From the IMG/VR virus record IMGVR_UViG_2687453592_000007: a stretch of 21,500 nucleotides of DNA; one strand, given 5' to 3'. How positions within the stretch are numbered: the stretch's first letter is position 1; every line of letters starts with the position of its first letter. Positions 357-19,610 of the stretch are shown here, in pieces. Source of the stretch: an uncultured virus (IMG/VR IMGVR_UViG_2687453592_000007). Taxonomy: Duplodnaviria; Heunggongvirae; Uroviricota; Caudoviricetes. A model generated the notes under the pieces. It searched no databases and had not been told where the DNA came from. It saw nothing but the letters and a program-made list of their open reading frames with translations. The position numbers and the translations under genes were made by a program.

Positions 357-373
357 TTTACTTTCAAGCACTT
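310..373 (+). repeat. Left att core of element 1; 64-bp direct repeat identical to 7159-7222
   Basis: GGATTGCAAATCC...CTCCATTTACTTTCAAGCACTT is present at both positions, each immediately next to an integrase 3' end. Confidence 0.95.
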
Positions 374-424
374 GGCTCGACCACCCGCTTGCGCGGGGCG
401 CTCCGTTTACAGCGCCGTTTACAG
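362..424 (+). promoter_or_regulatory. Left att arm of element 1: IHF-like site (362-374) and two arm-type repeats CCGTTTACAG (403-412, 415-424)
   Basis: TTTCAAGCACTTG has one mismatch to the IHF consensus WATCAANNNNTTR. The 10-mer repeats at 12-bp period and recurs at the other end of the element. Confidence 0.7.
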
Positions 425-3726: not shown

Positions 3727-4671
3727 CTATGCAGTCCACACGGGCCTGTCCCGCCAGTCGGTAGGAAACCCCATATTTGATCTATCCGCGTCTGATCTCT
3801 CCTCGATCAGCTCACGCAACCGGCTACGCAAAGTGCTATCCGTGCACTGCTGATCCATGAGATGAAGAAGAACCACAAAAACATTATAAATCCGATTGTC
3901 GTTCTGCCAATTTTGACCGTCGCACACCGCAACAAGGTCGCGTTTGAACCTTTTAATTTTAGGAAGCCGCTTGACTGTTCGGCGATTCCATAATCTTCCA
4001 TGGTGCGCACAAATATTACGCACATATGATAGAACCTGCAGGGTGCCTTCGACGATCTCTTTGGTGGGCAAGCCCAAGTCATGCCCTACCTTCGACTTGA
4101 TTGAATTGTCCTTTGTTGCTTGGAACCACTTTGAAAGCTCCCCAAGCGTCATCAATTCTGTAGCTGCCCAAAGCGGCGGAGAATAGGGGCTCGTGTATTT
4201 GCCCTTGTAGTGCACTATGAAGGTCTCTTCGGACTTATCCACTGCCCGAGCAAGACGGACGAGTTGTTCTGCGTGGCTCAACCCGTTGGAAAATAGTTCG
4301 TGATCTAGATGTGCATGGGGGCCGTAGGAATGCGACATATGGTAGGTCCAACGGGACCTCACATGAACCTCGACACGTTCAATCGCCTCAAGGACGATGA
4401 CGCGCAATCTACGATCAAAGACATATAGGTCAGTTACTGAAGAAAACGCTGTGCCGATATTAAAAATTTTACTGCGCGCGTCCGCCCCTTCAGCAACCTT
4501 TTCGAATGGCAGCCAATAGGCGCTTAGCCTGTAGTACCCAACTGTCTCAAGCCATTTTTTGGCGGCGCCGTGATCATCAACACTCATGCCTCTCTTTATT
4601 AGAAGCTGAAGTTGCTCATCAATATTGGTAGGCCGCTTAGTGAACTGCAACGTCGAAAGCAGGTCCCTCAA
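3727..4671 (-). CDS. Abi family protein (AbiD/AbiF, Abi_2-like) with HEPN RNase motif; start may be TTG at 4650
   Basis: EQLQLLIKRGM, VGYYRLSAYW, LYVFDRRLR, PPLWAATELMTLGELSKWF, HEPN motif RNICAHH; visibly more AT-rich than the flanks. Confidence 0.93.
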   Translation of the reverse strand: MRDLLSTLQFTKRPTNIDEQLQLLIKRGMSVDDHGAAKKWLETVGYYRLSAYWLPFEKVAEGADARSKIFNIGTAFSSVTDLYVFDRRLRVIVLEAIERVEVHVRSRWTYHMSHSYGPHAHLDHELFSNGLSHAEQLVRLARAVDKSEETFIVHYKGKYTSPYSPPLWAATELMTLGELSKWFQATKDNSIKSKVGHDLGLPTKEIVEGTLQVLSYVRNICAHHGRLWNRRTVKRLPKIKRFKRDLVAVCDGQNWQNDNRIYNVFVVLLHLMDQQCTDSTLRSRLRELIEERSDADRSNMGFPTDWRDRPVWTA

Positions 4672-5078: not shown

Positions 5079-6188
5079 TCACGCGCCGGGGTTCTTGTAC
5101 CAGGCACGGTGATCGACGAACCCGGCCCCGAAATCGAGGCGCACCTTGAACTCGCTGGCATCGGTCTCGAAGCCGTCGCGGGTGAAGATCTGCGGCCCCG
5201 AAGCCCCGTCCAGATAGGCGTGCTGCAACGCATCGGGACGGCCCGGCAGGGCGGCGATGTACCAGGCCGCCGGGTCCGTCAGGTTGGCATCGGCCAGAAC
5301 CGTCAGCTTCTGCTGGAACGGGTTCACATCGTCGGCCGACGCGGCCGAGATTTCGGCCACCAGCCGTTCGGCCTGCGTTTCCAGCTCGGGCGGCACGATC
5401 AGAAGCGCGGGGTCCACCCGGATCGCCTCGCCCGCCAGCCCCTTCTGGCGACGCATCGCGGTGCGGGCGAGGGACAGCGAGCCGATGGAGAGGGCCGCGC
5501 CGGTCTCGGCCAGGTTGCCGTGATCGGCATGGAAGAGGGTCTTGCCATCCGACATGGCCGGACCCGCGCCGCCATTCGCCTCGAGGAGCCCGGCGAAGAT
5601 GCGCGCCTCGGTGAGCGCCGCACCCTGACCGAACAGCCGCGAGCTCTGCTCGAAAGCACGGAGGTCATCGTTCACGATGGCCTGGCGGGTCAGGGTGAAG
5701 ATCTTGCCATAGGTTTCCAGCACGAAGGCCTCGCCCGCGTCGGTGATCTGGCCTTGCCCGAACTCGCCGTTTTCCAGCACCTTCGCCAGTTCGACGCCGC
5801 CCGAGACGCGAACGGTGTTGATCGGCCGGAAATCCGGGGCCGAGACTTCGCGGGAGGCCTTCTTGATCTGCGACTCTGCGGCCTCGTAGGCCGCCAGCAG
5901 CACCTTGTTGGAGGCAATCGCCAAGGCCGTCTTGAAATCGTCGGCGCCCATCGCACCGCCCCACATCACGGCATGGCGCTGCCCCCGGAGGAAACTGCTG
6001 CCGGCCGACAGCCTCGCAAGGTCATCGAGCCGCATGTTCGCGAACTCCCGGCCGTGGGTCGGGACATGCCCGGACTGCATCCGCGCCAGAAGACCATCCG
6101 CCATCGCGTCGGCCCGAGACGGCGCTTCCTGACCGATGCCGATGGCGCAGGGGCGGATCGGCGGCTCGTTGCTGGCCATGAGCGCCAT
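5079..6188 (-). CDS. Phage major capsid protein (capsid part of a ClpP/scaffold/capsid fusion type)
   Basis: LAAYEAA, PDFRPIN, LAKVLENGEF, LETYGKIFTLTRQAIVNDDL, LFHADHGNL, LIVPPELE, KVRLDFGAGFVDHRAWYKNPGA. Frame open back to ~6280. Confidence 0.88.
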   Translation of the reverse strand: MALMASNEPPIRPCAIGIGQEAPSRADAMADGLLARMQSGHVPTHGREFANMRLDDLARLSAGSSFLRGQRHAVMWGGAMGADDFKTALAIASNKVLLAAYEAAESQIKKASREVSAPDFRPINTVRVSGGVELAKVLENGEFGQGQITDAGEAFVLETYGKIFTLTRQAIVNDDLRAFEQSSRLFGQGAALTEARIFAGLLEANGGAGPAMSDGKTLFHADHGNLAETGAALSIGSLSLARTAMRRQKGLAGEAIRVDPALLIVPPELETQAERLVAEISAASADDVNPFQQKLTVLADANLTDPAAWYIAALPGRPDALQHAYLDGASGPQIFTRDGFETDASEFKVRLDFGAGFVDHRAWYKNPGA

Positions 6189-6261
6189 GGCCTCGTTCGC
6201 GGCGACCCGGGCGATTTCCTTGGTGATCGCCGCCGCGTCGGTCTCCGGCAGAGCGAGACCC

Positions 6262-6562
6262 GCCAGGCGAGATTGGACGGCTCATGGATCATCAGATGCG
6301 CCGCGCGGTGCATGGCAATCTCGGCCGCCCCCATCACCAGGAGCGACGCGGCAGACGCCGCCACGCCCAACACTTCCACCCGGACCTGCCCGTGCCGGTC
6401 GAGCTGGGCCAGGATCGCGGCCCCGTCCGAGGCAATCCCGCCATAGGAATTGACGGCGATCACCACCGGCACGCCCGCATTGTCGTCCAGGAAGGCGCCG
6501 ATCCGGGGCGGGGTATTCTCGCCCTCGCCAATCGGCCCGTAGATATGAAGGGTTTCGGTCAT
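6262..6562 (-). pseudogene. N-terminal fragment of a ClpP-like prohead protease, out of frame with the capsid gene
   Basis: IYGPIG, INS-like VNSYGG, AASAAS (catalytic Ser), LMIHEP (His); similarity ends at NLAW and the Asp-bearing half is missing. Confidence 0.8.
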
Positions 6563-6666
6563 TCTGATACCTGAGCTTTGGGGAGCTGTTGCGGTTGCGC
6601 CGAGGGAGCGGCGGCGAGGCAGCTGCTGCTCGGCCGCTGGCTCTTCGGATTGGCAAGCCGTCTCAT
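6559..6666 (-). CDS. 35-aa linker ORF (MRRLANPKSQ...KAQVSE), possibly a deletion-fusion remnant
   Basis: ATGA overlaps at both ends (with 6663 stop and 6562 start); translated by hand. Confidence 0.4.
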   Translation of the reverse strand: MRRLANPKSQRPSSSCLAAAPSAQPQQLPKAQVSE

Positions 6667-7220
6667 GCCGCCACCTCGATTTCCGAGATATGCCGGAGGA
6701 ACGCGGTCTGATCGCGCGGCGCCATCGCCTCGAAAGAGGCCAGCGCGAAGGCTTTCAGCTCGGCCCGGTTGGCGAGCGAGGCCCAGAACCGGGCTTCCTC
6801 CATCCCGCGCAGGAACGGGGGCATGGGCGCCCCGGCCGCGCGCAGCACTGTGGCCGCCGTCATTTCGGCCTGCTCGGGCTCCAGCGACCGCAACGCCGCA
6901 TAGGCCAGCGAGGCCCGCTCGCGCGCCGTGAGCCGCACCATGGCCAGGAGGCGGAACCAGTCCCAGCCATCGAAGGACGCATAAGTCAGCGCATGGCCGA
7001 GAACCCGCGCCATCCGCTTATGCGCGGGCTTGATGTCTTTGGAGAGAAGTTTCGAGGAACGACTGCCGTTTACAGGCGCCTCGTAAGCGTTTGTTTTTTG
7101 AGAGGTCAGACCTGGGGGGCGTTTACAGGATTTGTCCGCGTTTTCCGTGTGGTCGGAAGGATTGCAAATCCGTGTACAGGAGTTCGATTCTCCTACTCGC
7201 CTCCATTTACTTTCAAGCAC
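6663..7220 (-). CDS. Phage/satellite hypothetical protein whose 5' end runs into the att core; start uncertain
   Basis: Protein-like region KPAHKRMARVLG...ARFWASLANRAELKAFALASFEAM...EIEVAA; frame open through the att arm and core up to TAA at 7223-7221. Confidence 0.7.
   Translation of the reverse strand: MLESKWRRVGESNSCTRICNPSDHTENADKSCKRPPGLTSQKTNAYEAPVNGSRSSKLLSKDIKPAHKRMARVLGHALTYASFDGWDWFRLLAMVRLTARERASLAYAALRSLEPEQAEMTAATVLRAAGAPMPPFLRGMEEARFWASLANRAELKAFALASFEAMAPRDQTAFLRHISEIEVAA
7065..7128 (+). promoter_or_regulatory. Right att arm of element 1: CGTTTACAG repeats (7067-7075, 7120-7128) flanking an IHF-like site (7084-7096, minus strand)
   Basis: Same 9-mer as at 404-412 and 416-424; AAACAAACGCTTA has one mismatch to WATCAANNNNTTR. 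Confidence 0.7.
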
Positions 7221-7222
7221 TT
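7159..7222 (+). repeat. Second att core (tRNA-Cys 3' fragment): right end of element 1 and left end of element 2
   Basis: Identical to 310-373; no 5' tRNA half upstream. Confidence 0.95.
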
Positions 7223-7267
7223 AGCGGGTTTCCGCGCTCCAGCGCGAAGCGGTGTCTAAGCAAGCGT

Positions 7268-8317
7268 CTAAACATTCCGTTTTTGTTCTGTTCGCCTTTT
7301 CGTGGCAAGGCCCTCGCCCGTTGAGGGCTTCTTCCGGCGAGCCTGGGCCTCTATGGCGCGCACGCGCTGCCGGATCTGCTGCGTGTAGTGCGCGACCATC
7401 TTGGGGCTTTGCCCCGTGACCGCGGCCACCAGCTCGTCAGTGCATCCAGCCTCGACCAGTTCGCACGCGGCATTGTACCGCCAACTGTGGATGTCGAAGT
7501 CCAGCGCCCCGATATCTTCCCGGATCTTGCGAATGGCCTGCGATGCTCCGCGATAGGACCAGCGGCTGGTTCCGCTTTGGTTCGTCAGCATGAACAGCGA
7601 CCGGCGCGGCGCCCTGTCCAGCGCCTCCTGGAGCGAAGGCACAATGGGCACCCAAAGCCGCTTGCCGGTCTTGTTCTGTTTGACCGTGATGCCCCCATCC
7701 TGGATATCGCCCCATTGCATTTCCAGCACATCGCCGATGCGCTGGCCGGTTCCGAGGCACAGCTCCATCAGCAGGCGCTCGCGCGCCCCCAGCGGCACGG
7801 CAGCACGAAAAGCGTCGATCAGGCTTTGCGGCCATGGCAGGCGCGGATCCGCATCCGCCTTCAGCAACGACACCCCCTTGGCTGGGTTATCGGTGCGCCA
7901 GCCAAGATCGATGCTATGCTCCATCAGAATGCGGATCACCTTCACCGCGTAGTTCGCGAAATACGGTTTCCCTGCGTTCTCATCGCGCAAGCGTATCACA
8001 TCCCGACGCTGGAGGTTTGCCGGGTTCAGCGGGCCGAACCGTTCGTCGATGAACGCCGTGAACTTGTCATAGTCCAGCGCCGTGCGGGGCTTCAGGTTCC
8101 GGTAACGCGGCGACTGGTGGTAACTGCGGATAAGAGCGGAAAAGTTCCTGCGCAGAACCTTGGCCTGCCCCTCTCCTTTCAGGATAGCAGCGTATTCGGC
8201 CCAGAACTCCGGGCTGCCGAAGTCCGACCCGATCTTTTGCGACGGCCACCCACGGCGCTGAAAATACAGACCATTTCGCTGCCAGTACACATATTTAGGA
8301 AGCTCTCGCTTCGTCAT
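7268..8317 (-). CDS. int: Tyrosine recombinase / phage integrase of element 2 (~349 aa from MTKRELPKYVY)
   Basis: GTGQRIGDVL, KQNKTGK, IHSWRYNAA, AHYT; adjacent to att. Confidence 0.95.
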   Translation of the reverse strand: MTKRELPKYVYWQRNGLYFQRRGWPSQKIGSDFGSPEFWAEYAAILKGEGQAKVLRRNFSALIRSYHQSPRYRNLKPRTALDYDKFTAFIDERFGPLNPANLQRRDVIRLRDENAGKPYFANYAVKVIRILMEHSIDLGWRTDNPAKGVSLLKADADPRLPWPQSLIDAFRAAVPLGARERLLMELCLGTGQRIGDVLEMQWGDIQDGGITVKQNKTGKRLWVPIVPSLQEALDRAPRRSLFMLTNQSGTSRWSYRGASQAIRKIREDIGALDFDIHSWRYNAACELVEAGCTDELVAAVTGQSPKMVAHYTQQIRQRVRAIEAQARRKKPSTGEGLATKRRTEQKRNV

Positions 8318-8471
8318 ACCGCATATCCACCCTATCGAACTCGGAAAGGACTTCCTGCTCCGTTTCAAGCTCGAACTCGATTCGTCTTCCCTCGATCACC
8401 ACCCGTTTGACAACCCGCCCTTCGGCCTCAAGGGCCCTCAGGTAATTCAGGGCCCGCTTCTCAGCCGTCAT
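8295..8471 (-). CDS. Small int-adjacent phage protein (MTAEKRALNYL..., 58 aa)
   Basis: GGGAGG RBS; overlaps int start; same position as 1470-1682 in element 1. Confidence 0.7.
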   Translation of the reverse strand: MTAEKRALNYLRALEAEGRVVKRVVIEGRRIEFELETEQEVLSEFDRVDMRYDEARAS

Positions 8472-8771
8472 GGCGTCCTCCCGGCTCGGCTCGTACTGCC
8501 GCGACGGCCCCAATGTCGCAGTATCCACGCTGCGTTGGCATGTGCAGATCGAGGGGCGGAAGCTGGTGGATGTCAGGCATCGGGTTTTCCTTCCTTCATG
8601 GCGCAATCGACCAGCTCGGCGATGGCGTTCCGTTCTACAGCCTGCGTTCCTGGGCTTTGAGCGCACGGACCTTCTGCCTCACATGAGCGGTGTAATGCGC
8701 AACCATCGCCATGGATTGGCCGGTGACGGATGCGATTTCCTCATCCGTCGGGTTAGAGGAACGAAGAATAC

Positions 8772-8996
8772 CTCGCCACTTGCTTCGAGCGCGACCGAAC
8801 CATCGGCTCCTGGCAGCCCAAGCGCGATGGCGAACGCAACGAGGCCCTCGACACCTTCGTCTACACCCACGCCGCCCTGTAAAGGCTGATCAGCATGGGG
8901 CTCCGGCTGAGCGAGAAGGTAGAGGGAGTAAAGAGGCCGGCACCGACAGTGAGAAGCGCACCATCACCGGTGCGCTTCCAGTGGATGAAACGGTGA
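8772..8996 (+). pseudogene. C-terminal remnant of a lambda GpA-type terminase large subunit
   Basis: Hand translation: FERDRTIGSWQPKRDGERNEALDTFVYTHAAL*RLISMGLRLSEKVEG...QWMKR*. RNEALD..VY is the GpA C-terminal motif; in-frame TAA at 8880-8882. Confidence 0.8.
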
Positions 8997-9013
8997 GAAC
9001 CCGTTCCCTCGAC

Positions 9014-11011
9014 TCAAGCGGCCACCAATGAGACAACACTCGTTGAGAGCGTCGACGCAGCGAAATCGCGCAGCAGCAGGGTGCGACGATCTCCGCCCCC
9101 GCCTTGCTGCTGGAGGGTTCGCTCCAGCGTCGGCAGGCGCTCATCTCTCTCCGCGTCCGCGAAGAAGTCCGAGAATGCCACGACCCGGCCTTCGCTGACA
9201 GCGACCGCTTCCTCGACGATAGCTCGTTCCATCGGACGCCCCCGGGCAACGAGCGCACGCAGCGCGGAGGGATCGGCCCTCTCAAGCGCGTCTTCGAAGG
9301 CGATCGCAAAGGTCGTCTTGAAAGGAATATCCGACAATCCGGCTCTTTCGGAGACGTAGGTCGAATAACTATCCTGCGGCGCGTCCGACAGAAATGAACG
9401 CAGACCGTCCTCGGAAGACAACCCAGACTCGAAGAGAAAGAGCTGCCGCCGCGCCATTGCTGTCGGTAGAGACAAAGTACTCGTGTCCTCGACACCGGTT
9501 GGCTGCGGCCTCGCGCGACGCAGCGCGCGCCCTTGATCCAGTTTTTGCAGTAGTAACCGGGTCACATCATCGGCCACGCCGTCAGCAATCGCATTGTTTA
9601 GAATGTCGCGCGCGTCGGCCGTGCGTCGCAGATCGTCGGCCAAAACCGTCGCAAGCTGGGTGCGCGCATACGGTTCTTCGGGGAACAGAGCCGTCGTCTC
9701 CCGCAGAAGGGCCGCCGCTTCTTCCGCTTTGCCGGAGTAAACCGACAGCACCGTAGCAAGCTGCGTGCGCCACTGGAGGTTTTCAGGAAAGCGCCGAACT
9801 GCTTCCCAACCGACAAGTTCCGCATCCGCAATGCGCCCAGCGGCCGCCAAGGCATCTCGCATAAGGGACCAGGCGAATACGTTCACTGGGTCGTAGTCAA
9901 AGGCCAAGGTCGCCAGAGATACGGCGAGCGCCCCGCGCTCGCCTCGTTCGTCCGGTGCCCCCTTCTCGATTAGCCGCATGCCAAAGTTGCAAGCCGTGCG
10001 CACGAGGTAAAAGACATCACCCGAAACGTCAGCGTAACGTTGCTGTCGGCGCATTATGGTTTCGATAGGCGTCCTAATCTGATCCAAGGGCTGCTCAACA
10101 GAGTTGAGGACAGGCTGCCACTCGCTCATTGGAACCGGCTCAGTCGAGAAAATGGTCCGCGATAGCGCTCGCTCGTTAGGATGAATATCGACATCCTCTC
10201 GCCACCAAGCGGCGACCGGAAATGTCGTCTCGGCGCCATTCGTGCGTCCCGACAACTCACGCTCTGCAGCCGTGATGGCGGCTTGGACGCGATCCGTCCA
10301 GAAGCCGGCATCCCGCGGGAAGTCACCTTCGAGAATGCGCCATTCTCGCTCGAAGGCCGCCGTGCCCGGCCGCTGTGTCACAGCCCAACGCGCAAGACCC
10401 TGAAGCGCAAAGTCCTCGTTCGCATCGAAGTCATCACCCAGCGGAAGGCGACGCAGACCGAGGAGCGCGATCCGCAAGTAGCTGGCGTCGTAACGTCCGG
10501 CGTCACCGCTCTCTGCACAGACTGATAGCCAGAGCGGCATCAGCCGGCGCGGCTCCAGGCCATGATCCGCCGCCACATCCTGGCTGAGCGCAAGGATCCG
10601 AAAATATTCGCGGCGCAGGTCGAGACCGCGATCCACGACAAAATTCTCGAAGAAGCCACTCCACAGAACGTAGCGGCGATGGAGGTCCGCAACCGTCTGC
10701 TCGGGCAACAACCGCCGAATGATGGTAACAAGCGTTACGAGTTTCGCCAGCTCGATGCGAAACGAACGGCCTTCCTGCTGCAGTAGCGTTGAACGGAACT
10801 CCTCTAGGAGCTCGGCGCAGCCACGGTCGAACCCGCGAACGACATCCGAGTCGCCCGTCTCCGAAGCAAGAATGGCGTCCACAGCGTCTTCGGGCTCAGC
10901 AGCCGAAAGCCGCCCAAGCGACGCCGTCCCATTTAGGAGAGCCCGAAGTGCGGCCTTCCCATTATCCCTTAGCTGGGCTTTCCATTTCTCCAAGGCTGAA
11001 GGCGTCACCAT
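9014..11011 (-). CDS. Large helical protein with TPR repeats (665 aa), unknown function
   Basis: TPR-like units DPVNVFAWSLMRDALAAAGRIADA, FPENLQWRTQLATVL...AEEAAALL, FPEEPYARTQLATVL; 2 bp from the upstream stop. Confidence 0.85.
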   Translation of the reverse strand: MVTPSALEKWKAQLRDNGKAALRALLNGTASLGRLSAAEPEDAVDAILASETGDSDVVRGFDRGCAELLEEFRSTLLQQEGRSFRIELAKLVTLVTIIRRLLPEQTVADLHRRYVLWSGFFENFVVDRGLDLRREYFRILALSQDVAADHGLEPRRLMPLWLSVCAESGDAGRYDASYLRIALLGLRRLPLGDDFDANEDFALQGLARWAVTQRPGTAAFEREWRILEGDFPRDAGFWTDRVQAAITAAERELSGRTNGAETTFPVAAWWREDVDIHPNERALSRTIFSTEPVPMSEWQPVLNSVEQPLDQIRTPIETIMRRQQRYADVSGDVFYLVRTACNFGMRLIEKGAPDERGERGALAVSLATLAFDYDPVNVFAWSLMRDALAAAGRIADAELVGWEAVRRFPENLQWRTQLATVLSVYSGKAEEAAALLRETTALFPEEPYARTQLATVLADDLRRTADARDILNNAIADGVADDVTRLLLQKLDQGRALRRARPQPTGVEDTSTLSLPTAMARRQLFLFESGLSSEDGLRSFLSDAPQDSYSTYVSERAGLSDIPFKTTFAIAFEDALERADPSALRALVARGRPMERAIVEEAVAVSEGRVVAFSDFFADAERDERLPTLERTLQQQGGGGDRRTLLLRDFAASTLSTSVVSLVAA

Positions 11012-11013
11012 GA

Positions 11014-11928
11014 TCAGATCCCGACTTCGCCAAAATCCGTGCGCCCCGTTTCTGTTCGCAGGGTATCAAGGTGACGACCGCGCGCGGCCTCTATGTCGGG
11101 AACATCCGCTCCCGACCATTTGGCTAGCCGCTTTACATGCCTCCAGGAATAATCGAAGCGGATGTGGAGGATCTCACGCACGCACGCCTTTTTCGGATTG
11201 CGCTCGCGCAGGTCCACCGTGAACCCATGGCTGGTCGAGCGCGGAACTGGAAAGAACGCCGGGTTGTTCTGGCACTCAAGAACCGTCGCCAAGGAGAAAC
11301 ACCGATCAACCCCCTTCGAATGAGCCTGCTTGATGACTTCGTCAGCGGTGTATTCCATAAGCGCAAACCTATACGGCTTATCCGGAACAAACGGGTAATG
11401 GTGGTATAATCCAAGACGGTCAATAATTCTTTGCAGCCAGTCCGCTTCCTTAAGATCGTCCGAAACCTCACTCTTGAATGCGGCAAACGAAGGGCGCTCG
11501 CCCGGATAATTCTGGAACTGATCCGTGAGCGCCGAGAGCCTGTGCTGATCGCCTGTCCGGAGGGCATCAACGAGGCTGTCGAAGTCGAGTCCCCCCCGAG
11601 GTTCTAAATGGCGGTCGATCCGCTCGAGGCGGATGATCTTTTGCACTGGCTCCACAGAAGCCGCAAGCAGTGCCAGATCGTTGGTCGCTACATCGAAGGT
11701 CGATGAGTTGTGGCCCCGCGCCAGCCCCTGAACGCTATCAACGAAGTAACTGTTGACCACCTTACGGATATCTTCTGATAGCGGTTTGTAGGTCTCTACG
11801 TCGTCCCGCCGCTGCTCAGAGACGTTTTCTTCGATCAGATAATTGCAGCCGACGCAGCTTTCGTCCACGTCGGATGCCCCGGCAAGGGAAACTGCCGAAG
11901 CAGTCAGTTCGGATCGATTGAACTGCAT
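11014..11928 (-). CDS. Hypothetical protein (304 aa), first gene of a two-gene operon
   Basis: GGGGAG RBS, long ORF with globular composition; no family recognised with confidence. Confidence 0.85.
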   Translation of the reverse strand: MQFNRSELTASAVSLAGASDVDESCVGCNYLIEENVSEQRRDDVETYKPLSEDIRKVVNSYFVDSVQGLARGHNSSTFDVATNDLALLAASVEPVQKIIRLERIDRHLEPRGGLDFDSLVDALRTGDQHRLSALTDQFQNYPGERPSFAAFKSEVSDDLKEADWLQRIIDRLGLYHHYPFVPDKPYRFALMEYTADEVIKQAHSKGVDRCFSLATVLECQNNPAFFPVPRSTSHGFTVDLRERNPKKACVREILHIRFDYSWRHVKRLAKWSGADVPDIEAARGRHLDTLRTETGRTDFGEVGI

Positions 11929-12057
11929 GCCGCTCCCCGAAATACAACCCTACATAAATTGGCGCCGGTGGGCCGGCGCCTCTATCCTCTATCTATTCGA
12001 CATCCGAGCCGATGAGAAGCCCATGCAGGTCGGCGGCTCTCCAACTGCTCGCCGAAG

Positions 12058-13435
12058 GCGCATCGCGGGGCACGCGCATCGGCAGGCCGAGCGCGCCGAG
12101 GATCACGACGACGAGCTCGGCACCATCCGCGCCCGGCTGAGATCGATCGAGGCCATCCTGAAGGACCGCAAGTCGCTGATCGGCCGGCGCCTGACGCATG
12201 CCAAGAATGCGGGCAACAGCGGCCCCATCGGCAACATGATCGAGCAGGCGCAACCGGGGCTCGCCCGGGCCTATGAGGATCTCGATGCCGATCCGCTGAC
12301 CGTCAACACGCTCTCGGGCACGCTGCGCTTTTCGACGGTCGCGGCCGAGGGCATGTCGCCGGTGGCCGAGCTGCGCGTCCAGCCCGAGCATCTGCGCGGC
12401 GATCTGCTGTCGAAGATCATGCCGGTCGCCTATGACCGCGCCGCGAAAGCCCCGCGCTGGGACGCCTTCCTCGAGGAGATCCTGCCCGACGCCACCGTGC
12501 GCGACTTCGTCCAGCGCTGGATGGGGCTCTCGATGACCGGCATCAAGATGCAGCGCCTGGCCTTCTTCTATGGCGGCGGCGCCAACGGCAAATCGGTGCT
12601 GGTCGACACCATCGCCCGGGTGCTGGGGCCCTATGCGGCGACGGCCCGGATCGAGTCGCTGACCGGCACCAACCGCCGCGGCGGCGGCGATGCCACGCCC
12701 GACCTGATCCCGCTGATGGGCGCGCGCTTCGTGCGGACCTCGGAACCCGACGAGGGCCAGCGCCTGCAGGAGGGGCTGATCAAGGAACTGACCGGCGGCG
12801 AGCCCCTGATGATCCGGGCGCTGCACAGCGATTTCCTGGAGTTCTCGCCGTATTTCAAGCTGACCATGAGCGGCAACCACAAGCCCGAGATCCGCGGCAC
12901 CGATGACGGGATCTGGCGCCGGGTGCTGCTGGTGCCCTTCGATGTGCAGATCCCCGAGGACCGCCGCGACCCGGAGCTGGCCAACAAGCTCTGGGACGAG
13001 GCGCCCGGCATCCTGAACTGGCTGATCGCGGGGCTGACCGACTTCCTCGAGGGCGGCCTGCGCCCGCCCGACCGGGTGCTCGAGGCGACGGCCGAGTATC
13101 GCGAGGAAAGCGATCCGGTCGGCGCCTTCCTGACCGAAAGCGCCATCGTCACCGGCGCCGAGGCCGATTTCATCTATTCGCGCGAGCTGATCGAGGCCTT
13201 CAACTTCTGGCTGGAGGATCGCGGCGAGACCCGATGGGGCGGGCGCACCGTATCGAACCGGCTCAAGCAGAAGGCCAGCCGCTGGCGCCATCCCCATACC
13301 GGCAAGAGCTTCATCCCGGCCAAGCGCGGGGCAACCGGCTATCGCGGCCTGCGCTTCACCGACGAGTTCGCGGCCCGGATGGCAGATCGCAGAGACCATG
13401 GCGGCGCCGGTGCGCCCGTCGACGAGCCGTTCTGA
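12058..13435 (+). pseudogene. Phage/plasmid P4-family primase-helicase (D5-like SF3 helicase), N-terminally truncated; left boundary approximate
   Basis: APRWDAFLEEI, Walker A GGGANGKS, IKELTGGE, SGNHKPEIRGTDDGIWRRVLLVPF; no credible start/RBS, and codon style changes near 12050. Confidence 0.85.
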
Positions 13436-13544
13436 TGCGCCGCACCCCGCACCCCGTTTCCGATCCATCGGAGGCTTCGGGCCGTCCGGCCGCCCCGGAT
13501 CACCGGCCCGACCGGCCCGAAACCGTCCCTCACGGCCTGAGACG

Positions 13545-14024
13545 AGGGCGACCAGCTTCAAGACCTTCTTCAAGGATATCGTGAAGGGCTCGGGCGATGC
13601 GGGGGACGCGATCTCGGCGCTGGCCGACCGGATGCTCGACGACCTGCTCGACCGCGCGATGAGCCCGCTCTCGGATGCCCTGGGCTCCACGTTCGACGGG
13701 CTGTTCTCGGGGCTCTTCGGCGGCCGCGCAAGCGGCGGCGGCGGGACCGTGACCCAACTCTTCCCCTCGGGCGGCCTTCCCGGCTTTGCCCGCGGCACCG
13801 ACAGCGCCCCGGGCGGGCTTGCCTGGGTCGGCGAGGCGGCCCCCGAGCTCGTCAACCTGCCCCGCGGCGCCCAGGTGATCCCGAACCACCGCCTGGGCAG
13901 CCTCGGCGGCGGCTCGGTCCGGATGGGCGATGTGCATGTCAGCGTGGCCCAGACCAATGCCGATCCGCGCCAGATCGCCGAGGCGGTGCGCCGGGTCTCC
14001 CGCGAGGAGGCGCAGCGGGTCTAC
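13545..14024 (+). pseudogene. C-terminal fragment of a phage tail tape-measure protein
   Basis: LFSGLFGG...GFARGTDSAPGGLAWVGEAAPELVNLPRGAQVIPNH is a typical tape-measure C-terminus; no start. Confidence 0.8.
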
Positions 14025-14025
14025 C

Positions 14026-14370
14026 CGGCTCGATGGCATCGTCTTCGAGAACCTGCCCTGGCAGGAGGTGCTGGCGCGTTATGACGGCCCGCAGGCGCTG
14101 TTCTATCTCGATCCGCCCTATTGGGGCGGCGAGGACGATTACGACAAAGGCCTCTTCGACCGCGACCAGTTCGCCGAGCTGGCCGAGCGCCTGGGTCGGA
14201 TCAAGGGCGCCTTCGTGCTGTCGATCAACGACCGGCCCGAGATCCGCGATCTGTTCGGCGCCTTCGTGATCGAGGAGGTGCGGCTGACTTACTCGGTCTC
14301 GAAGAGCGGCGCGACCGCCGCGCGGGAGTTGATCATCGCCAATCGCGAGGTCAGGGTGGGGCTCGTATGA
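14026..14370 (+). pseudogene. C-terminal fragment of a phage Dam-type DNA adenine methyltransferase
   Basis: RLDGIVFENLPW...LFYLDPPYWG...FVLSINDRPEIR...ELIIAN; the SAM-binding N-terminal half is absent. Confidence 0.88.
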
Positions 14371-14411: not shown

Positions 14412-14624
14412 GCCCGCGATCCGGTCAACCTGCTGCTCGTCAGCGCGTCGGCGGACCGCTCGAAAGACGCGCGCGGGCCGCTCGACTGGTTGCCGCCGGA
14501 TCCGGGGCTCCGCTGCCAGTATGTCCCGCGGTTCCGGCGGATCGCCGCGAGCTACGGCTTGGTGCAGTCCGCAGCCGAGGAGCGGGAACTGGTGGCGCTG
14601 ACCGGGCGGCTGTGTGGGACATAA
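14412..14624 (+). pseudogene. C-terminal fragment of a DUF1524-type HNH endonuclease
   Basis: Hand translation: RDPVNLLLVSASADRSKDARGPLDWLPPDPGLRCQYVPRFRRIAASYGL...; no start, upstream TAA at 14394. Confidence 0.7.
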
Positions 14625-14719
14625 GAGCGGGTAGCAGATGGGGTGGATGGCTCCCGCTCCCGGCGTCGCGATGCGCCATACTGCAGGTGTCAGAATCTGC
14701 AATTGAGAGGAGCCACCCC

Positions 14720-15739
14720 ATGCAAGTTACCACTGTCGGCCTCGACCTGGCCAAGAACATCTTTCATGTCCACGGAGTTACCGAGACCGGAGAGGTCGCC
14801 TTCAATCGGCCTTTACGCCGGGCGCAGGTGCTGGCGTTCTTCGAGCGACTGCCGCCCTGCCTCATCGGCATCGAAGCCTGCGCATCGAGCCACCACTGGG
14901 GCCGTGAGCTTACGAAGCTCGGTCATACTGTCCGGCTGATGCCGCCGATGTACGTCAAACCCTACGTGAAACGGGGCAAGTCCGATGCGGTCGATGCAGA
15001 AGCCATTTGCGAGGCCGTGACGCGGCCGACGATGCGGTTTGTCGAGATCAAGTCCGAGGACCAGCAGGCGCTTCTCTCCTTGCATCGCGCACGGGACTTC
15101 GTGGTTCGACAGCGCACTCAGTTGATCAACATGCTCCGAAGCCTGGCCGCGGAGTTCGGGATCGCCATCGCTCGGGGCGTCGCGCGGGCCATCGATTTTG
15201 CGAAAGGGATCATCGAGGGCAAGCAGTCCGGGTTCCCCGAGCTCGCCCAGGACGTTCTGCGGGTCCTCAGCCGTCAGCTGGTCGAGCTCCACAACCGCTT
15301 TCGCTGGTACGAGATCACGATGCGTATCCAGGCTCGTCTCAGCCGCCAGGCGCAACTCCTGCAGAGCATTCCCGGAGTTGGGCCGGTCACCGCCTCGGCC
15401 GTGGCCGCCACGATCGGATCGGGTCACCAGTTCAAGAGTGGGCGGGAATTTGCGGCGTGGCTTGGTCTGACACCGCGCAACCACTCCAGCGGTGGCAAGG
15501 AGCGCTTAGGGAAGATCACCAAGATGGGCGATCGGTATCTGCGTCAGCTTATCGTCGTCGGCATGACATCGCGTGTGCGGCAGGTCTCCAACCATCCGGA
15601 GCGTGCCGATCCCTGGCTGACGAAGCTGCTGCAGAGGAAGCCTGCCCGGCTCGCGACCGTCGCCATGGCGAACAAGACGGCGCGGATCATGTGGGCGGTG
15701 CTGACCAGGAACGAATCCTACCGACCTCACACAGCCTGA
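14720..15739 (+). CDS. IS110-family DEDD transposase/recombinase (339 aa)
   Basis: GLDLAK, GIEAC, KSDAVDA, IPGVG, AWLGLTP..HSSGGK; GAGGAG RBS. Confidence 0.97.
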   Translation: MQVTTVGLDLAKNIFHVHGVTETGEVAFNRPLRRAQVLAFFERLPPCLIGIEACASSHHWGRELTKLGHTVRLMPPMYVKPYVKRGKSDAVDAEAICEAVTRPTMRFVEIKSEDQQALLSLHRARDFVVRQRTQLINMLRSLAAEFGIAIARGVARAIDFAKGIIEGKQSGFPELAQDVLRVLSRQLVELHNRFRWYEITMRIQARLSRQAQLLQSIPGVGPVTASAVAATIGSGHQFKSGREFAAWLGLTPRNHSSGGKERLGKITKMGDRYLRQLIVVGMTSRVRQVSNHPERADPWLTKLLQRKPARLATVAMANKTARIMWAVLTRNESYRPHTA

Positions 15740-16026: not shown

Positions 16027-16860
16027 GATGATGTGGATGGCCCCTGCTCCCCCGGCGTCGCGATGTGCCATAGTGCAGTTGTCATCGACTGCTGAGAGAG
16101 GAGCCACCCAATGACAGTCAATACGGTCGGCCTGGATTTGGCCAAGGATGTCTTTCAGGTTCACGGGATTTCCGCGAATGGGCGCGTCATTTTCAACAAG
16201 ACGGTGAAGCGCGCCAAGCTTCTGCAATTCTTCGAGGCCCTGCCGCCCTGCGTCGTCGGGATGGAGGCGTGTGGGTCCGCCCATCACTGGGGCCGCGAAT
16301 TGGGCAAGCTCGGTCACGACGTCCGGCTGATGCCTGCGGGCTATGTGAAACCCTATGTGAAGCGGGGCAAGACCGACGCGGTCGATGCCGAGGCGATTTG
16401 CGAGGCGGTGCGCCGACCCACGATGCGCTTCGTCGAACTGAAGACGGAAGATCAGCAGGCGATCCTGGCGATCCACCGCACCCGCGATCTTGTGGTCCGG
16501 CAGCAAACCCAGATCGTGAACATGATCCGCAGCATCTTGCGCGAATTCGGCCACATCCTGCCGACCGGAGTGGGCGCCATCCTCACCTTTGCCAAACGCC
16601 ACCTCGGCGGGGACCATCCCGACATGCCGGAACTGGCCAACGGTATTCTCGGGACGCTGTGCCATCAGCTGGTGGGCCTCAACACCCGGGTCGTCGGCTA
16701 CACCAGGATGATCGAACAGCACGCCATGATGACGGCAGATGCCCGGCGGCTGATGCGCATACCCGGGATCGGTCCGATTACCGCCTCGGCCATCATCGCC
16801 ACGATCGGCGATGCGAAACAATTCCGGACCGGGCGCGATCTGGCGGCCTGGCTGGGTCTG
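16027..16860 (+). mobile_element. Related but distinct IS1111-group element, right part deleted
   Basis: Left end GATGATGTGGATGGCCCCTGC resembles copy 1; no right IR or non-coding region. Confidence 0.85.
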
Positions 16861-16884
16861 TTCCACAACAGGCCCGCACAATAG
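16111..16884 (+). pseudogene. Truncated IS110-family transposase (257 aa)
   Basis: Homologous to 14720-15739 up to AAWLGL, then diverges; lacks the SSGG catalytic serine region. Confidence 0.92.
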
Positions 16885-17118
16885 AAATTTGACGTTTCCA
16901 GCTCAAACCGGAAGTTGAATGATTCATGACATACGACAGCTCAGAGGCTCATTAAATACCCGCTTCCTCTCCGCTATTGACTGCCTCGCCATTTGCAATG
17001 AACATCACAATATAACCAACGGAGAATTTAGCCATGTGATGCTGTCGCATGCTGGAGGCTTATGTCGCGACATTTGGCAGTTTACAATTTTGGCCGCAAC
17101 GAGAACGGAGTCGTCGGG

Positions 17119-17934
17119 ATGGTTTTTCAGTTCATCGTCATCGGCGCAGCGATTGCGACCATTTGGGCGAAGAATGCATACGCAACTGACAACCTCGTTT
17201 ACAGCGATGAGAGTTTCCTGCTTGAACTGGGCTATAATCCTGGAGCTGTAGACGGATTTGCGGATCAAAACACACATAGCGCGATTTCTAGCTCTCAGAT
17301 AGGGCGTGGATCGCTTGTAACCGGTGGCATGGATACGCAGGGGCGCCGGGCACTTGGCCAGGAGATTTTAGAATTTCGTGCGAAACAGGAACAGCATCCT
17401 CCAGAAATTCCGCAAAATCTTCCGAAGGAAACCTTACCTGAAACCATTCGCAGGGAGGTCGGCCACATATGGCTGTTTAGTGATTACCGCACACTTCCAA
17501 TTGGAATGAGCGCATTTTTGGGCCCAGGTCCTGGTGGCGATTGGAGCAAGCCACATCAGTCTTTAGTGTGGTATCGGGTTTATTCTTTGGATGCCTTTCA
17601 CTCGAATGGCGTTGCGGTTCCGCAATATCTAACCGGAGAAGAAAAAAGCCATCCCTTCAATGCGAATGGGATAGGCTTGAATGGACCTTATAGCGGCCCA
17701 GCCCCTGACTTGGCAATGGTATGTGTGGTACACGCTCCACGATCCGCACCAGCCAGGTTAGTCTACAGTTTGAGCTTTTGGCGAGCGGAGCCACTACGCT
17801 TCGACCCTACAACTGGCTCGAAAAGCTACGATGCCACCATAGGGCCCGAGCTTGGCTGGGCCGTTGGCTCAGACCCTTGCCAAAATGCGTTCCAGTCTCT
17901 TGACGCTGACACCAGGGCTGCTTTGCGCCACTAG
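17119..17934 (+). CDS. Putative exported protein with a degenerate peptidoglycan-binding domain (~271 aa)
   Basis: GGAG RBS, hydrophobic N-terminus ending AYA, LLELGYNPGAVDG...T..AI...Q...VTG motif; C-terminal domain unknown. Confidence 0.7.
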   Translation: MVFQFIVIGAAIATIWAKNAYATDNLVYSDESFLLELGYNPGAVDGFADQNTHSAISSSQIGRGSLVTGGMDTQGRRALGQEILEFRAKQEQHPPEIPQNLPKETLPETIRREVGHIWLFSDYRTLPIGMSAFLGPGPGGDWSKPHQSLVWYRVYSLDAFHSNGVAVPQYLTGEEKSHPFNANGIGLNGPYSGPAPDLAMVCVVHAPRSAPARLVYSLSFWRAEPLRFDPTTGSKSYDATIGPELGWAVGSDPCQNAFQSLDADTRAALRH

Positions 17935-18185
17935 GCTGGAAATTATTTTCTTTTTTGAGTTCTGAAAATTGGCTTCGCCAAAGCACGGCTTCCGAGCCAG
18001 ATGAGAGCAGAAAGATGGCCAGAAGAAGTGCAAGCCTGAGGAAACACTCACCTAACTGCAGCGGGTAGATGTTGGGTTTCACATGGCTGGTATATTTTTG
18101 ATAAATCCCAGAAGATGGTGAATGCACTCATTCACCGCTGGTATCCGTCAGGATGTGATAGAATGGCCGCACGAATGGCGGGCAA

Positions 18186-19073: not shown

Positions 19074-19610
19074 CAAATCTGCCGCCAAGCATATTTTCGA
19101 GTGAATTCCTGAACTCGAGATGCTCACGATTCCGGAGGAATATATACGCCCGCATGTCAAAGTAAAGTAACTATCATTTTATTCTAAGGAAATTATTGAC
19201 ATTATGAAGGCCTAGGCATCCAGTCTTGGTATCTTCGGTAACGAGTAGGCGGCTGAATTTGGCGACGCAGGTCGCTGGTGCGTTGAAGATCAGTTCTCGG
19301 AAATCTCCACCTATGCTCGGTGAGGATCTTGAAAAGTAGCTTCTTGCCCAAAGTACCAGCGTCTGCCGGGTGGCCCGGGGAGATCTCAGAGGCCTGACTC
19401 GTCCGGTTCGGGGCTGCGACCGGCAACCCGCTGCACGAGGCACGAAGGACCGGTTTGGGCCGTGAGCGACGCCGCGCGAGGGGCGATCAGGCGCTTGCCC
19501 CTGCGGCGCGGCGAAGGTCGGGAACGAGCCTATTCCGTTGAAAAACGCGACTTGTCCGAAGGTCTGACCGTTGATTCAATATCGCTGCAACCGGCTCGAA
19601 ATACCCGCTG

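What the first reader, a model, noticed from the sequence alone, without database searches (positions are those of the whole stretch)
9014..11980. Intact uncharacterised two-gene operon (304-aa protein + 665-aa TPR protein): candidate new defence system
Seen: two long intact ORFs 2 bp apart with a good RBS, surrounded by phage pseudogenes. A perfect 8-bp hairpin GGCGCCGG-TGGG-CCGGCGCC (11961-11980) lies in the leader. The 304-aa protein has enzyme-like motifs (RPSFAAF, RLGLYH, NPAFFP, GFTVDL, REILH). Inference: TPR sensor plus effector. The G-x-T...E-x-x-H ending is loosely reminiscent of ADP-ribosyltransferase-like folds, which is speculative.
Basis: partly seen in the sequence, partly recalled or inferred. 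Interest (0 to 1): 0.7.

Follow-up and report, generated by a model that had tools for sequence, protein, structure and literature searches.

The report
Toxin-like enzyme with TPR partner cassette
An intact, transcribed two-gene cassette that hops between proteobacterial chromosomes encodes a very divergent NAD-using, toxin-type enzyme and a large repeat protein that probably controls it; it is most likely a new toxin-antitoxin or anti-phage module, but its function is untested.

Summary
Both ORFs are real genes. A (304 aa, 11014-11928, minus) and B (665 aa, 9014-11011, minus) lie 2 bp apart, are under purifying selection, and are covered by RNA-seq contigs that bridge their junction. Neither matches any Pfam, NCBIfam, PHROGs or PADLOC family, apart from sub-threshold TPR hits in B.

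A is followed directly by B in 36 of 36 related loci that have close A copies and downstream DNA. No third gene recurs. Flanks differ everywhere and are mostly housekeeping. One genome shows a clean 3.6-kb insertion relative to an empty site in a congener.

Best reading (about 0.45): a toxin/effector plus controller module of a new sequence family. Defence-island enrichment was not seen. B's structure and A-B binding could not be computed. The hairpin exists but is no better than chance.

The parts
11014..11928 (-). Gene A, 304 aa. Cytoplasmic protein with a divergent ADP-ribosyltransferase-superfamily fold, closest to the SPN NAD+ glycohydrolase.
11629..11631 (-). Codon of Arg100 on the first core strand (97-103). 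Candidate R/H-motif residue that binds NAD.
   Evidence: Conserved in at least 90% of 68 sequences down to 23% identity. The strand assignment comes from the model. Equivalence to SPN His273 is inferred from the order of elements (passages), not from a superposition.
11173..11175 (-). Codon of Glu252 (R-E-I-L-H), at the start of a strand after a long loop. Candidate catalytic glutamate.
   Evidence: Invariant in 68 of 68 sequences. Strand 253-255 follows the long loop 205-252. Equivalence to SPN Glu391 is inferred. The residue two positions upstream is Val, so there is no Q/E-x-E motif.
9014..11011 (-). Gene B, 665 aa. Partner protein, translationally coupled to A.
   Evidence: ORF. 148 or more homologues. 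Directly downstream of A in 19 of 19 genome-contig loci and in 17 of 18 genome-search loci with close A copies; the 18th contig ends. A-stop to B-start spacing is -17 to +14 nt in 36 of 36 measurable loci.
9506..9922 (-). TPR region of B (residues ~364-502).
   Evidence: Profile of 51 homologues against PDB: OGT TPRs, E 1.1e-9, residues 364-480/502. Sub-threshold Pfam TPR_19/TPR_14 hits. The N-terminal part (1-355) and C-terminal part (506-665) show no similarity to the TPR part or to any family.
9017..9025 (-). C-terminal V-A-A of B. Conserved -[LMVI]-A-A tail and candidate ClpXP (ssrA-like) degron.
   Evidence: 103 of 120 homologues end in AA and 12 in VA, against 9 AA and 1 VA among 323 flanking ORFs. 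[quoted passage not shown]
11933..11938 (-). GGGGAG ribosome-binding site of A.
   Evidence: Read from the sequence.
11961..11980 (.). Perfect 8-bp GC palindrome/hairpin in the 95-bp divergent region between A and the D5-type gene. Role open: operator, 5' stem or chance.
   Evidence: Not above chance. One wobble-compatible change in L025. RNA contigs stop before it.
8953..8978 (.). 10-bp perfect inverted repeat with a 6-nt loop, 36 nt downstream of the B stop. Possible terminator between B and the convergent terminase remnant.
   Evidence: There is no T-run, and the X1 RNA contig runs through it to 8849.
8766..8993 (+). Context: remnant of a terminase large-subunit gene (last 76 of 604 codons), convergent on B.
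   Evidence: tblastn with the intact terminase of L025: 76% identity over residues 529-604. Pfam GpA_ATPase/GpA_nuclease for the intact L025 gene.
7159..8368 (.). Context: left end of the carrier island. A 67-nt att repeat (3' half of tRNA-Cys) lies at 7159-7225 and a tyrosine integrase at 7268-8368 (-).
   Evidence: Direct repeat 310-376 / 7159-7225. Intact tRNA-Cys(GCA) elsewhere on the contig. Phage_integrase E 3.8e-16.

Best explanation
A and B form a self-contained, horizontally moving two-gene conflict module of a new sequence family.

A is a cytoplasmic enzyme with a very divergent ADP-ribosyltransferase-superfamily fold. It is most like the SPN type, which hydrolyses NAD+. Arg100 and the invariant Glu252 are the likely NAD-binding and catalytic residues.

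B is made in fixed proportion to A through translational coupling. It is a large helical protein with a central TPR array and a conserved C-terminal -[LMVI]-A-A tail of the kind ClpXP recognises.

I propose that B binds A and keeps it off. B is kept short-lived, or is made so when its TPRs bind a foreign protein. Loss of B, after phage shut-off of host synthesis or after loss of the cassette, frees A. A then depletes NAD+ or ADP-ribosylates an essential target and stops growth. This would give abortive infection and/or addiction.

Shown here: the gene pair and its coupling, the fold resemblance, the TPRs, the conserved tail, transcription, purifying selection, patchy distribution and insertion polymorphism.

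Inferred: catalysis, A-B binding, the degron, toxicity and any protection against phages.
For: Fold:
- The AF2 model has pLDDT 93.7.
- The best weak Foldseek rows are DarT1, NatT and SPN.
- Like SPN, A has an N-terminal helical part that aligns together with the core, and its conserved Glu sits at the start of a strand after a long loop.
- Glu252, Tyr193, Arg40, Arg283 and His286 are invariant, and Arg100 and His176 are at least 90% conserved, over 68 sequences down to 23% identity.

Pairing:
- A is followed directly by B in 36 of 36 loci with close A copies and downstream DNA.
- The stop-to-start spacing is -17 to +14 nt, and 24 of 36 loci fall within -4 to +2.
- A and B distance matrices correlate at r = 0.97, with 0 of 2000 permutations as high, over 23 pairs.
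- No neighbour family occurs in more than 3 of 38 loci.

Lability signal:
- 115 of 120 B homologues end in AA or VA, against 10 of 323 flanking ORFs.
- The same tail marks the ClpP-degraded antitoxin of the ART-toxin system CmdTAC, which also has the toxin gene first.

Selfish or accessory behaviour:
- The family was found in 2 of 61 relatives and in 19 of 401 genomes of the phylum sample, several of which carry 2-3 copies.
- G066 has a 3.64-kb insertion between pgm and thrS. The same-genus G082 has these genes 185 bp apart, and they are also adjacent in at least 8 other genera.
- The two copies in the window's genus fall in different major clades.
- TA pairs lie nearby in 3 loci.
- In this genus the pair rides mobile elements with AbiD, DUF4238 or a Vsr plus m5C-methylase module.
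- The pair stayed intact while the adjacent terminase decayed to 76 codons.

Expression: identical RNA contigs bridge the A/B junction while 12107-13975 is uncovered.
Against: - No residue-level superposition was available, so the Arg100/Glu252 assignment is inference. There is no Q/E-x-E motif and no evident S-T-S motif.
- No sequence model of a known toxin, antitoxin or defence protein matches A or B.
- None of the 126 immediate neighbours in 38 loci is a bona fide defence gene. Most flanks are housekeeping.
- tblastn with A found nothing in 72,556 plasmids or 50,697 phage genomes.
- B is broken while A looks intact in L005, L007, L017 and L052. The reverse occurs once (L019), and both are broken once (L018). 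A strict toxin-antitoxin relation predicts the opposite bias. Two of the four are long-read MAGs in which frameshifts may be errors.
- B is far larger than usual antitoxins, and two thirds of it has no recognisable domain.
Confidence: 0.45

Rival explanations
1. Sensor-activated effector without toxin-antitoxin logic. B is a TPR receptor that recognises an invader's protein and then switches on an otherwise inert A (an NADase or ART). It would resemble TPR-bearing Avs/TIR systems but lack an NTPase.
For: Loci with broken B and intact A (L005, L007, L017, L052) are tolerable if A is inert on its own. B diverges faster than A between the window and L025 (84% against 93% identity; dS 0.69 against 0.20), as receptors in an arms race do. 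A TIR-plus-TPR two-gene anti-phage operon has been described (BcTir/Tpr, abstract). Rousset et al. propose that TPRs sense infection (passage).
Against: B has no STAND or other NTPase domain by Pfam. The conserved -AA tail is unexplained unless it only sets B's level. No defence neighbourhood in 38 loci.
Confidence: 0.2
2. Endogenous regulatory ADP-ribosylation. A reversibly or irreversibly modifies a host protein or nucleic acid under some stress, and B is its adaptor or regulator. This would be an accessory physiological switch, not a conflict system.
For: Most copies sit alone between housekeeping genes. The pair is expressed in ordinary culture RNA-seq. It is chromosomal, with no plasmid or phage copies found. 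Regulatory ARTs such as DraT exist (recalled). One distant A relative lies beside nitrogenase-like genes (L068).
Against: Patchy distribution: 2 of 61 relatives and 19 of 401 in the phylum. Different insertion sites everywhere, and an empty site in a congener. Multiple divergent copies per genome. No eraser gene (macro, ARH, NADAR) is linked. No DRAT match for the L068 protein or any other member.
Confidence: 0.15
3. The ART resemblance is only topological. A is not an NAD-using enzyme, and the pair has some other, unknown role.
Confidence: 0.15
4. Exported effector with a TPR chaperone, as for type III secretion class II chaperones, or an interbacterial toxin with its immunity protein.
For: Many structural neighbours are secreted toxins (SPN, AvrPphF, Tne2, Rhs1-CT). 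B's TPRs weakly hit HrpB1/HrpK and SctY chaperone models below threshold.
Against: No secretion-system, PAAR/Rhs/VgrG or export genes recur beside the pair. No signal peptide or trafficking domain is evident in A, which keeps the same length (~300 aa) across the 150 listed of 676 relatives, with no fused forms. B is much larger than such chaperones or immunity proteins.
Confidence: 0.05

Closest known systems
SPN (Nga) NAD+ glycohydrolase with its immunity factor IFS, Streptococcus pyogenes
   Different: No sequence relationship: PF07461 does not match. A has Arg100 where SPN has His273, and no E-x-E motif. SPN is secreted into host cells, whereas A shows no export signal. IFS is a small 161-residue protein, whereas B is a 665-aa TPR protein.
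CmdTAC (PD-T4-9) toxin-antitoxin-chaperone anti-phage system
   Same: An ART toxin gene comes first and the neutraliser second. The neutraliser ends in LAA and is degraded by ClpP to release the toxin (PMC11618068, abstract and passages). 115 of 120 B homologues end in -AA or -VA.
   Different: PADLOC PD-T4-9 models do not match A or B. No SecB-like third gene recurs; one housekeeping-type SecB lies two genes away in 1 of 38 loci. B carries TPRs and is about 665 aa.
DarTG
RES-Xre toxin-antitoxin pairs (NatRT, MbcTA)
   Different: No RES domain and no Xre/HTH antitoxin. The gene order is reversed (recalled).
BcTir/Tpr two-gene anti-phage operon
   Same: A two-gene operon in which an NAD-related enzyme is paired with a TPR protein and the two act as a complex against phage (bioRxiv 10.1101/2023.05.26.542521, abstract and highlights).
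   Different: That system uses TIR and glycosidase domains, and there the TPR protein is itself the NADase. A is ART-fold, and B has no recognisable enzyme domain.

Membership tests
ADP-ribosyltransferase superfamily (fold level) | Split beta-sheet NAD-binding core shared by ARTs, NADases and Tpt1 | tested here: met
ADP-ribosyltransferase superfamily (fold level) | Active-site triad: R/H on the first core strand, S-T-S or Y, and a catalytic E at the start of a strand after the ARTT loop | tested here: inconclusive
   Arg100 (at least 90% conserved) lies on strand 97-103. Tyr193 is invariant on strand 186-194. Glu252 is invariant before strand 253-255. No residue-level superposition could be obtained. 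There is no Q/E-x-E motif.
ADP-ribosyltransferase superfamily (fold level) | Binds and cleaves NAD+ | not testable with these tools
NADase_NGA (SPN family, PF07461) | Match to the family profile | tested here: not met
   No Pfam hit for A at E<=0.1. PF07461 found nothing in the six-frame search of the own genome, although the control genomes were also silent.
CmdTAC / PD-T4-9 | Sequence match to CmdT, CmdA or CmdC models | tested here: not met
   PADLOC gave 0 families for A and B at E<=1. The G004 copies also gave none.
CmdTAC / PD-T4-9 | SecB-like chaperone as a third gene | tested here: not met
   No neighbour family occurs in more than 3 of 38 loci. SecB was seen near the pair once (L054).
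CmdTAC / PD-T4-9 | Neutraliser ends in a ClpXP-type LAA tail | tested here: met
   Among 120 B homologues the endings are LAA 45, MAA 15, VAA 13, IAA 11, other xAA 19 and xVA 12. Function as a degron is not tested.
DarTG | DarT (DUF4433) toxin and macrodomain antitoxin | tested here: not met
   No Pfam or PADLOC match for A or B. Structural Z to DarT is only 2.0-2.3.
RES-Xre | RES domain toxin and Xre-type HTH antitoxin | tested here: not met
STAND/Avs-type TPR sensors | P-loop NTPase domain between the effector and the repeats | tested here: not met
   Pfam finds only sub-threshold TPR families in B. The precomputed Pfam entries of 120 homologues list only TPR-type families, plus PF11846 and PF09613.
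Known anti-phage defence systems (guilt by association) | Enrichment next to known defence genes | tested here: not met
   PADLOC on 126 immediate neighbours of 38 loci gave only housekeeping cross-hits. Defence genes are near the pair only in the window (AbiD 3727-4671, DUF4238 18186-19160) and in G004 (Vsr plus MTase_II).
Type II toxin-antitoxin module | Toxin neutralised by direct binding of a labile antitoxin | not testable with these tools
The structure of B could not be predicted. The pseudogene pattern does not favour this model.

The most novel reading that the evidence does not exclude
A one-chain 'antitoxin plus chaperone plus sensor'. The TPR groove of B holds B's own hydrophobic C-terminal tail and hides its -LAA-type ClpXP degron. 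This is the job that the separate SecB-like chaperone does in toxin-antitoxin-chaperone systems. A phage protein that competes for the groove would expose the tail. ClpXP would then remove B and free an SPN-like, ART-fold NADase of a previously unrecognised family. That family is widespread (676 clusters at 50% identity).
Probability: 0.12. Interest if true: 0.8.

Novelty: new variant of a known kind. Interest (0 to 1): 0.6.

Why it matters
A represents a sizeable protein family: 676 representatives at 50% identity with E<=1e-3, and 192 with E<=1e-30. It has no Pfam, NCBIfam, PHROGs or PADLOC model. Its confidently predicted fold has almost no neighbours in the PDB other than distant ARTs.

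If A is an active NADase or ADP-ribosyltransferase held in check by a TPR protein with a built-in degron, this would add a new branch to the ART toxins. It would also add a new way of wiring such a toxin to proteolysis and possibly to phage sensing.

The pair is small (3.0 kb), self-contained, expressed, and present as clean insertions. It is therefore easy to clone and test. It also shows how a cargo module outlives the prophage that brought it.

Tried and rejected
Family and sequence searches:
- Pfam, PADLOC, NCBIfam and PHROGs on A and B gave nothing but noise (FliD at E 0.11; unnamed PHROGs at E>0.1) and sub-threshold TPR hits.
- The profile of A against PDB sequences gave only chance rows at E~1.
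- ESM Atlas gave no named neighbour for A, and its own model of A is poor (pLDDT 0.34). For B it listed only TPR clusters.
- Foldseek against BFVD gave nothing at E<=1e-3.

The DraT idea:
- It was prompted by a distant A relative beside nitrogenase-like genes (L068).
- There was no DRAT or any other Pfam hit in 12 distant members or neighbours.

B's other domains:
- Searching B's N-terminal 355 residues among shorter proteins found only fragments of the same family.
- hhalign between B's N-terminal, TPR and C-terminal parts showed no similarity.

Wider collections:
- tblastn of A found no match in plasmids or phages.
- megablast of 8300-13500 against plasmids found only the 150-bp terminase remnant.
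- The metagenome scan with the broad alignment failed because there was no conserved stretch. It was replaced by the genome search.
- Earlier findings of this scan: four look-ups, nothing.
- Four paper searches listed no ART-plus-TPR pair. This is not proof that none is in print.

Other:
- The hairpin as a significant element was rejected on statistics.
- Rfam and ARAGORN found nothing in the window.
- RNA contigs do not cover 12107-13975 or the hairpin. Absence of cover in contigs proves nothing.
Full report
**1. The observation**

The two ORFs exist as described. A is 11014-11928 (-), 304 aa, and B is 9014-11011 (-), 665 aa; both start with ATG. The junction reads TGA-tc-ATG, a 2-bp gap. GGGGAG lies 4 nt before the ATG of A. 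The perfect 8-bp GC stem with a 4-nt loop is at 11961-11980.

The genes are not chance ORFs:
- A has 70 homologues and B has 148 or more in the 5.8-billion-protein collection.
- dN/dS is 0.18 and 0.11 for A (against L025 and L001) and 0.14 for B.
- Two RNA-seq runs of one study hold contigs identical to the window. They cover 8849-11913 and 9206-11937 and bridge the A/B junction, while 12107-13975 is uncovered in the same runs. Contigs show presence, not transcript ends.

The hairpin is real but unremarkable:
- The leader folds with z = -1.21, and 23 of 200 shuffles fold as well.
- The window holds 96 short inverted repeats.
- The RNA contigs stop short of the hairpin.
- In the one close relative (L025) the stem is kept through a U.G-compatible change, which is n = 1.

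**2. Where the pair sits in the window**

The window is a mosaic of mobile elements. A 67-nt direct repeat (310-376 and 7159-7225) is the 3' half of tRNA-Cys(GCA) plus 20 nt. The 4,132,586-bp contig carries an intact tRNA-Cys at about 4,082,000 and partial copies at 4,113,746, 11,848 and 18,697. Each copy in the window is followed by a tyrosine integrase (431-1483 and 7268-8368). This looks like a tandem array of islands, provided the record is circular.

The first island in the window carries an HTH gene, AbiD (3727-4671; Pfam Abi_2 E 7e-54; PADLOC AbiD E 6e-70) and a capsid gene.

The second island carries the pair. Its layout is:
- integrase;
- a terminase large-subunit remnant, only the last 76 of 604 codons, at 8766-8993, convergent on B;
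- B and A;
- a divergent D5_N/DUF5906/Pox_D5 gene;
- a methyltransferase fragment and three IS110 copies.

A DUF4238 gene (18186-19160; Pfam E 3e-15) lies further right. A single DUF4238 protein protects against T7 in Rousset et al. 2022 (PMC9122126, passage).

An IMG/VR contig (L025) is collinear with window 12088-8773. It has the pair (A 93% and B 84% identical) next to an intact 604-aa terminase. The pair therefore came in as prophage cargo and stayed intact while the phage decayed.

**3. What A is**

A matches no family in Pfam, NCBIfam, PHROGs or PADLOC and nothing in PDB by sequence profile. A profile search of 1.84 billion representatives finds 676 relatives at E<=1e-3 and 192 at E<=1e-30. 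The 150 listed are 129-415 aa long, with no fused forms.

AlphaFold2 with 44 sequences gives pLDDT 93.7 and pTM 0.90. Foldseek finds no PDB hit at E<=1e-3. Its best weak rows are DarT1 (E 0.1), NatT, SPN, pertussis S1 and Tpt1, mixed with arginine kinases.

SPN is described as an atypical ART with an extra helical subdomain, His273 as the R/H motif, no S-T-S, and Glu389-x-Glu391 at the end of a long loop (PMC3795565, passages). A has the same order of elements:
- four N-terminal helices;
- strand 97-103 with Arg100;
- strands 147-151 and 186-194, the latter with Tyr193;
- a 48-residue loop;
- the invariant Glu252 directly before strand 253-255.

Over 68 sequences down to 23% identity, the invariant residues are Arg40, Phe78, Pro146, Tyr193, Glu252, Arg283 and His286. 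Arg100, Glu102 and His176 are at least 90% conserved. I could not obtain a residue-level superposition, so the equivalences Arg100 = R/H and Glu252 = catalytic Glu are inference. The residue at -2 is Val, so A lacks the Q/E-x-E motif of the protein-modifying toxins. That leaves NAD+ hydrolysis or transfer to a non-protein target as likely as protein modification.

**4. What B is**

Single-sequence Pfam gives only sub-threshold TPR hits. The 51-sequence profile matches the TPRs of OGT at E 1.1e-9 over residues 364-480/502. Residues 1-355 and 506-665 match nothing. They are not detectably TPR-like and do not occur as a separate protein.

The striking feature is the C-terminus. 103 of 120 homologues end in -AA and 12 in -VA. 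The endings are LAA 45, MAA 15, VAA 13 and IAA 11, while the preceding residues vary. Among 323 flanking ORFs of the same loci, 9 end in AA and 1 in VA. More distant B proteins from other proteobacterial families often end in -AA, -VA or -RA.

[quoted passage not shown] It is degraded by ClpP to free the ART toxin CmdT (PMC11618068, passages). I therefore read B's tail as a candidate degron. This is inference.

**5. The pair as a unit**

- A is directly followed by B in 19 of 19 loci from the GTDB species collection. One of these has B cut by the contig end, and some are broken (see section 7).
- In a sample of 401 genomes of the phylum, 19 carry the family and several carry 2-3 copies.
- Of 20 regions fetched, the 18 with a close A (E<=1e-56) have B directly downstream in 17. 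The 18th contig ends 428 bp after A.
- Of the two distant A relatives, one is followed by an unrelated 535-aa protein with weak TPR hits (L069). The other has nothing comparable downstream (L068).
- The spacing from A's stop to the nearest B start is -17 to +14 nt in 36 of 36 measurable loci. 24 fall within -4 to +2, with forms such as ATGA, GTGA, TGATG and TAAAATG. This argues for conserved translational coupling.
- Distance matrices of A and B correlate at r = 0.97, with 0 of 2000 permutations as high, over 23 pairs. Shared descent also contributes to this.
- No neighbour family recurs in more than 3 of 38 loci among 289 ORFs. There is no third gene.

**6. Distribution and mobility**

- Only 2 of 61 relatives have the family: the own genome and one congener.
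- In the tree of A, the window's copy sits in an alphaproteobacterial clade (support 100/100). The congener's copy sits in the other major clade, on a long branch. This indicates separate acquisitions.
- In G066 the pair lies between pgm and thrS. The same-genus G082 has these genes 185 bp apart, and they are adjacent (126-487 bp) in at least eight other genera.
- Homology breaks at L055 ~8127 and ~11765. This is a 3.64-kb insertion holding just A, B and their own upstream region, with no mobility gene or obvious repeats.
- tblastn with A found nothing in 72,556 plasmids or 50,697 phage genomes.

**7. Is it a defence system?**

Flanks differ in every locus and are mostly housekeeping: rpoD/dnaG, mgtE, rpe/purB, gltBD, lptFG, petBC, prfA, thrS-infC and others. 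PADLOC on the 126 immediate neighbours of 38 loci returned only cross-hits of housekeeping paralogues: RpoD to MzaA, DnaG to RT_UG29, RlmL to mad2, SecB to PD-T4-9_C, and an ABC ATPase to mad3. So the guilt-by-association test is negative.

Toxin-antitoxin pairs lie within four genes in three loci: MazEF, Phd and BrnTA.

In the window's genus both copies ride mobile elements with defence cargo. In the window these are AbiD and DUF4238. In G004 (also recorded as an IMG/VR provirus, L071) the order is integrase, relaxase, A, B, Vsr (PADLOC 2e-31), an unknown 326-aa ORF, an m5C methylase (MTase_II 3e-59) and a serine recombinase. There A and B have GC3 of 0.55-0.58, against more than 0.8 in the flanks.

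The pseudogene pattern does not favour a strict toxin-antitoxin relation:
- B is broken with A intact in L005, L007, L017 and L052.
- A is broken with B intact in L019.
- Both are broken in L018.
- Two of the four B cases are long-read MAGs in which frameshifts may be errors.

**8. Explanation**

The best-supported reading (about 0.45) is a conflict module. An ART-fold enzyme (A) is controlled by its co-translated TPR partner (B). B's conserved ClpXP-type tail makes it labile, or conditionally labile. Release of A arrests the cell through NAD+ loss or ADP-ribosylation. This would serve abortive infection and/or addiction, and it would also explain why the pair outlived its prophage.

The main rivals are:
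- a sensor-activated effector without toxin-antitoxin logic (0.2), which fits the broken-B loci better;
- an endogenous regulatory ART (0.15), which fits the housekeeping flanks but not the patchy, multi-copy, insertion-polymorphic distribution or the lack of an eraser gene;
- a misleading fold resemblance (0.15);
- an exported effector with a chaperone (0.05).

**9. Novelty**

The pair belongs to no described family by any sequence test run here. By fold and architecture it is a new variant of the ART-toxin modules: SPN-IFS, DarTG, RES-Xre and CmdTAC. Four searches of the paper library listed no ART-plus-TPR pair. That is not proof that none is in print, and bioRxiv supplements could not be read.

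Noticed in passing
window 310-376 and 7159-7225; own genome C1 at ~4,082,016, 4,113,746, 11,848 and 18,697: A 67-nt direct repeat equal to the 3' half of tRNA-Cys(GCA). There is one intact tRNA-Cys and three partial copies on a 4,132,586-bp contig, and each window copy is followed by an integrase. This suggests a tandem array of up to four islands (about 32, 31, 6.8 and more than 7 kb) at one tRNA, if the record is circular. No fifth copy closes the island that carries the pair.
   Followed up: partly
window 3727-4671 (-): An intact AbiD/Abi_2 abortive-infection gene (Pfam E 7e-54, PADLOC AbiD E 6e-70). It lies in the neighbouring 6.8-kb island, which also has an integrase, an HTH gene and a phage capsid gene (5079-6188). 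The island resembles a satellite.
   Followed up: partly
window 18186-19160 (-): A DUF4238 protein (Pfam E 3e-15) in a low-GC stretch (about 50% GC at 17000-19500). A single DUF4238 protein is an anti-T7 system in Rousset et al. 2022. PADLOC v2 did not match it at E<=1e-3.
   Followed up: partly
window 14612-15739, 16111-16884, 20448-21500: Three IS110-family transposase copies. The first and third are 100% identical over the repeats found. The middle one is about 72% identical and shorter (257 aa).
   Followed up: no
window 13398-14370: A 228-aa ORF with a glycine-rich tail-protein-like sequence overlaps a C-terminal fragment of a D12 N6-adenine methyltransferase (profile positions 158-251 of 253). 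These are further prophage debris.
   Followed up: no
L053 (G138:C92) 6235-9822: A and B lie in the same reading frame, separated by one TGA and 6 nt. The genome search reported a 1196-aa open frame. This could mean read-through or a recent fusion or split.
   Followed up: no
L068 (G098:C57) 7003-8127 and L069 (G162:C33) 131-2625: Distant relatives of A (E 2e-20 and 2.5e-18) occur without a B-family partner. One lies beside nitrogenase-like Oxidored_nitro genes. The other is followed by a 535-aa protein with weak TPR hits.
   Followed up: partly
L070/L071 (G004:C2, also an IMG/VR provirus call) 4307-11729 in L071: A low-GC3 cargo block on an integrative mobilisable element. It holds A, B, Vsr, an unknown 326-aa ORF (a candidate restriction enzyme) and a 755-aa m5C methylase. 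It is flanked by an integrase plus relaxase on one side and a serine recombinase on the other.
   Followed up: partly
L061 and L062 (one genus): A LexA-like Peptidase_S24 gene (221-228 aa) lies directly downstream of B on the same strand in both loci. It may simply be the housekeeping lexA.
   Followed up: no
window 9014-11928 compared with L025: B has diverged much more than A between the window and L025 (dS 0.69 against 0.20; 84% against 93% identity). This hints at recombination within the cassette or faster turnover of B.
   Followed up: no
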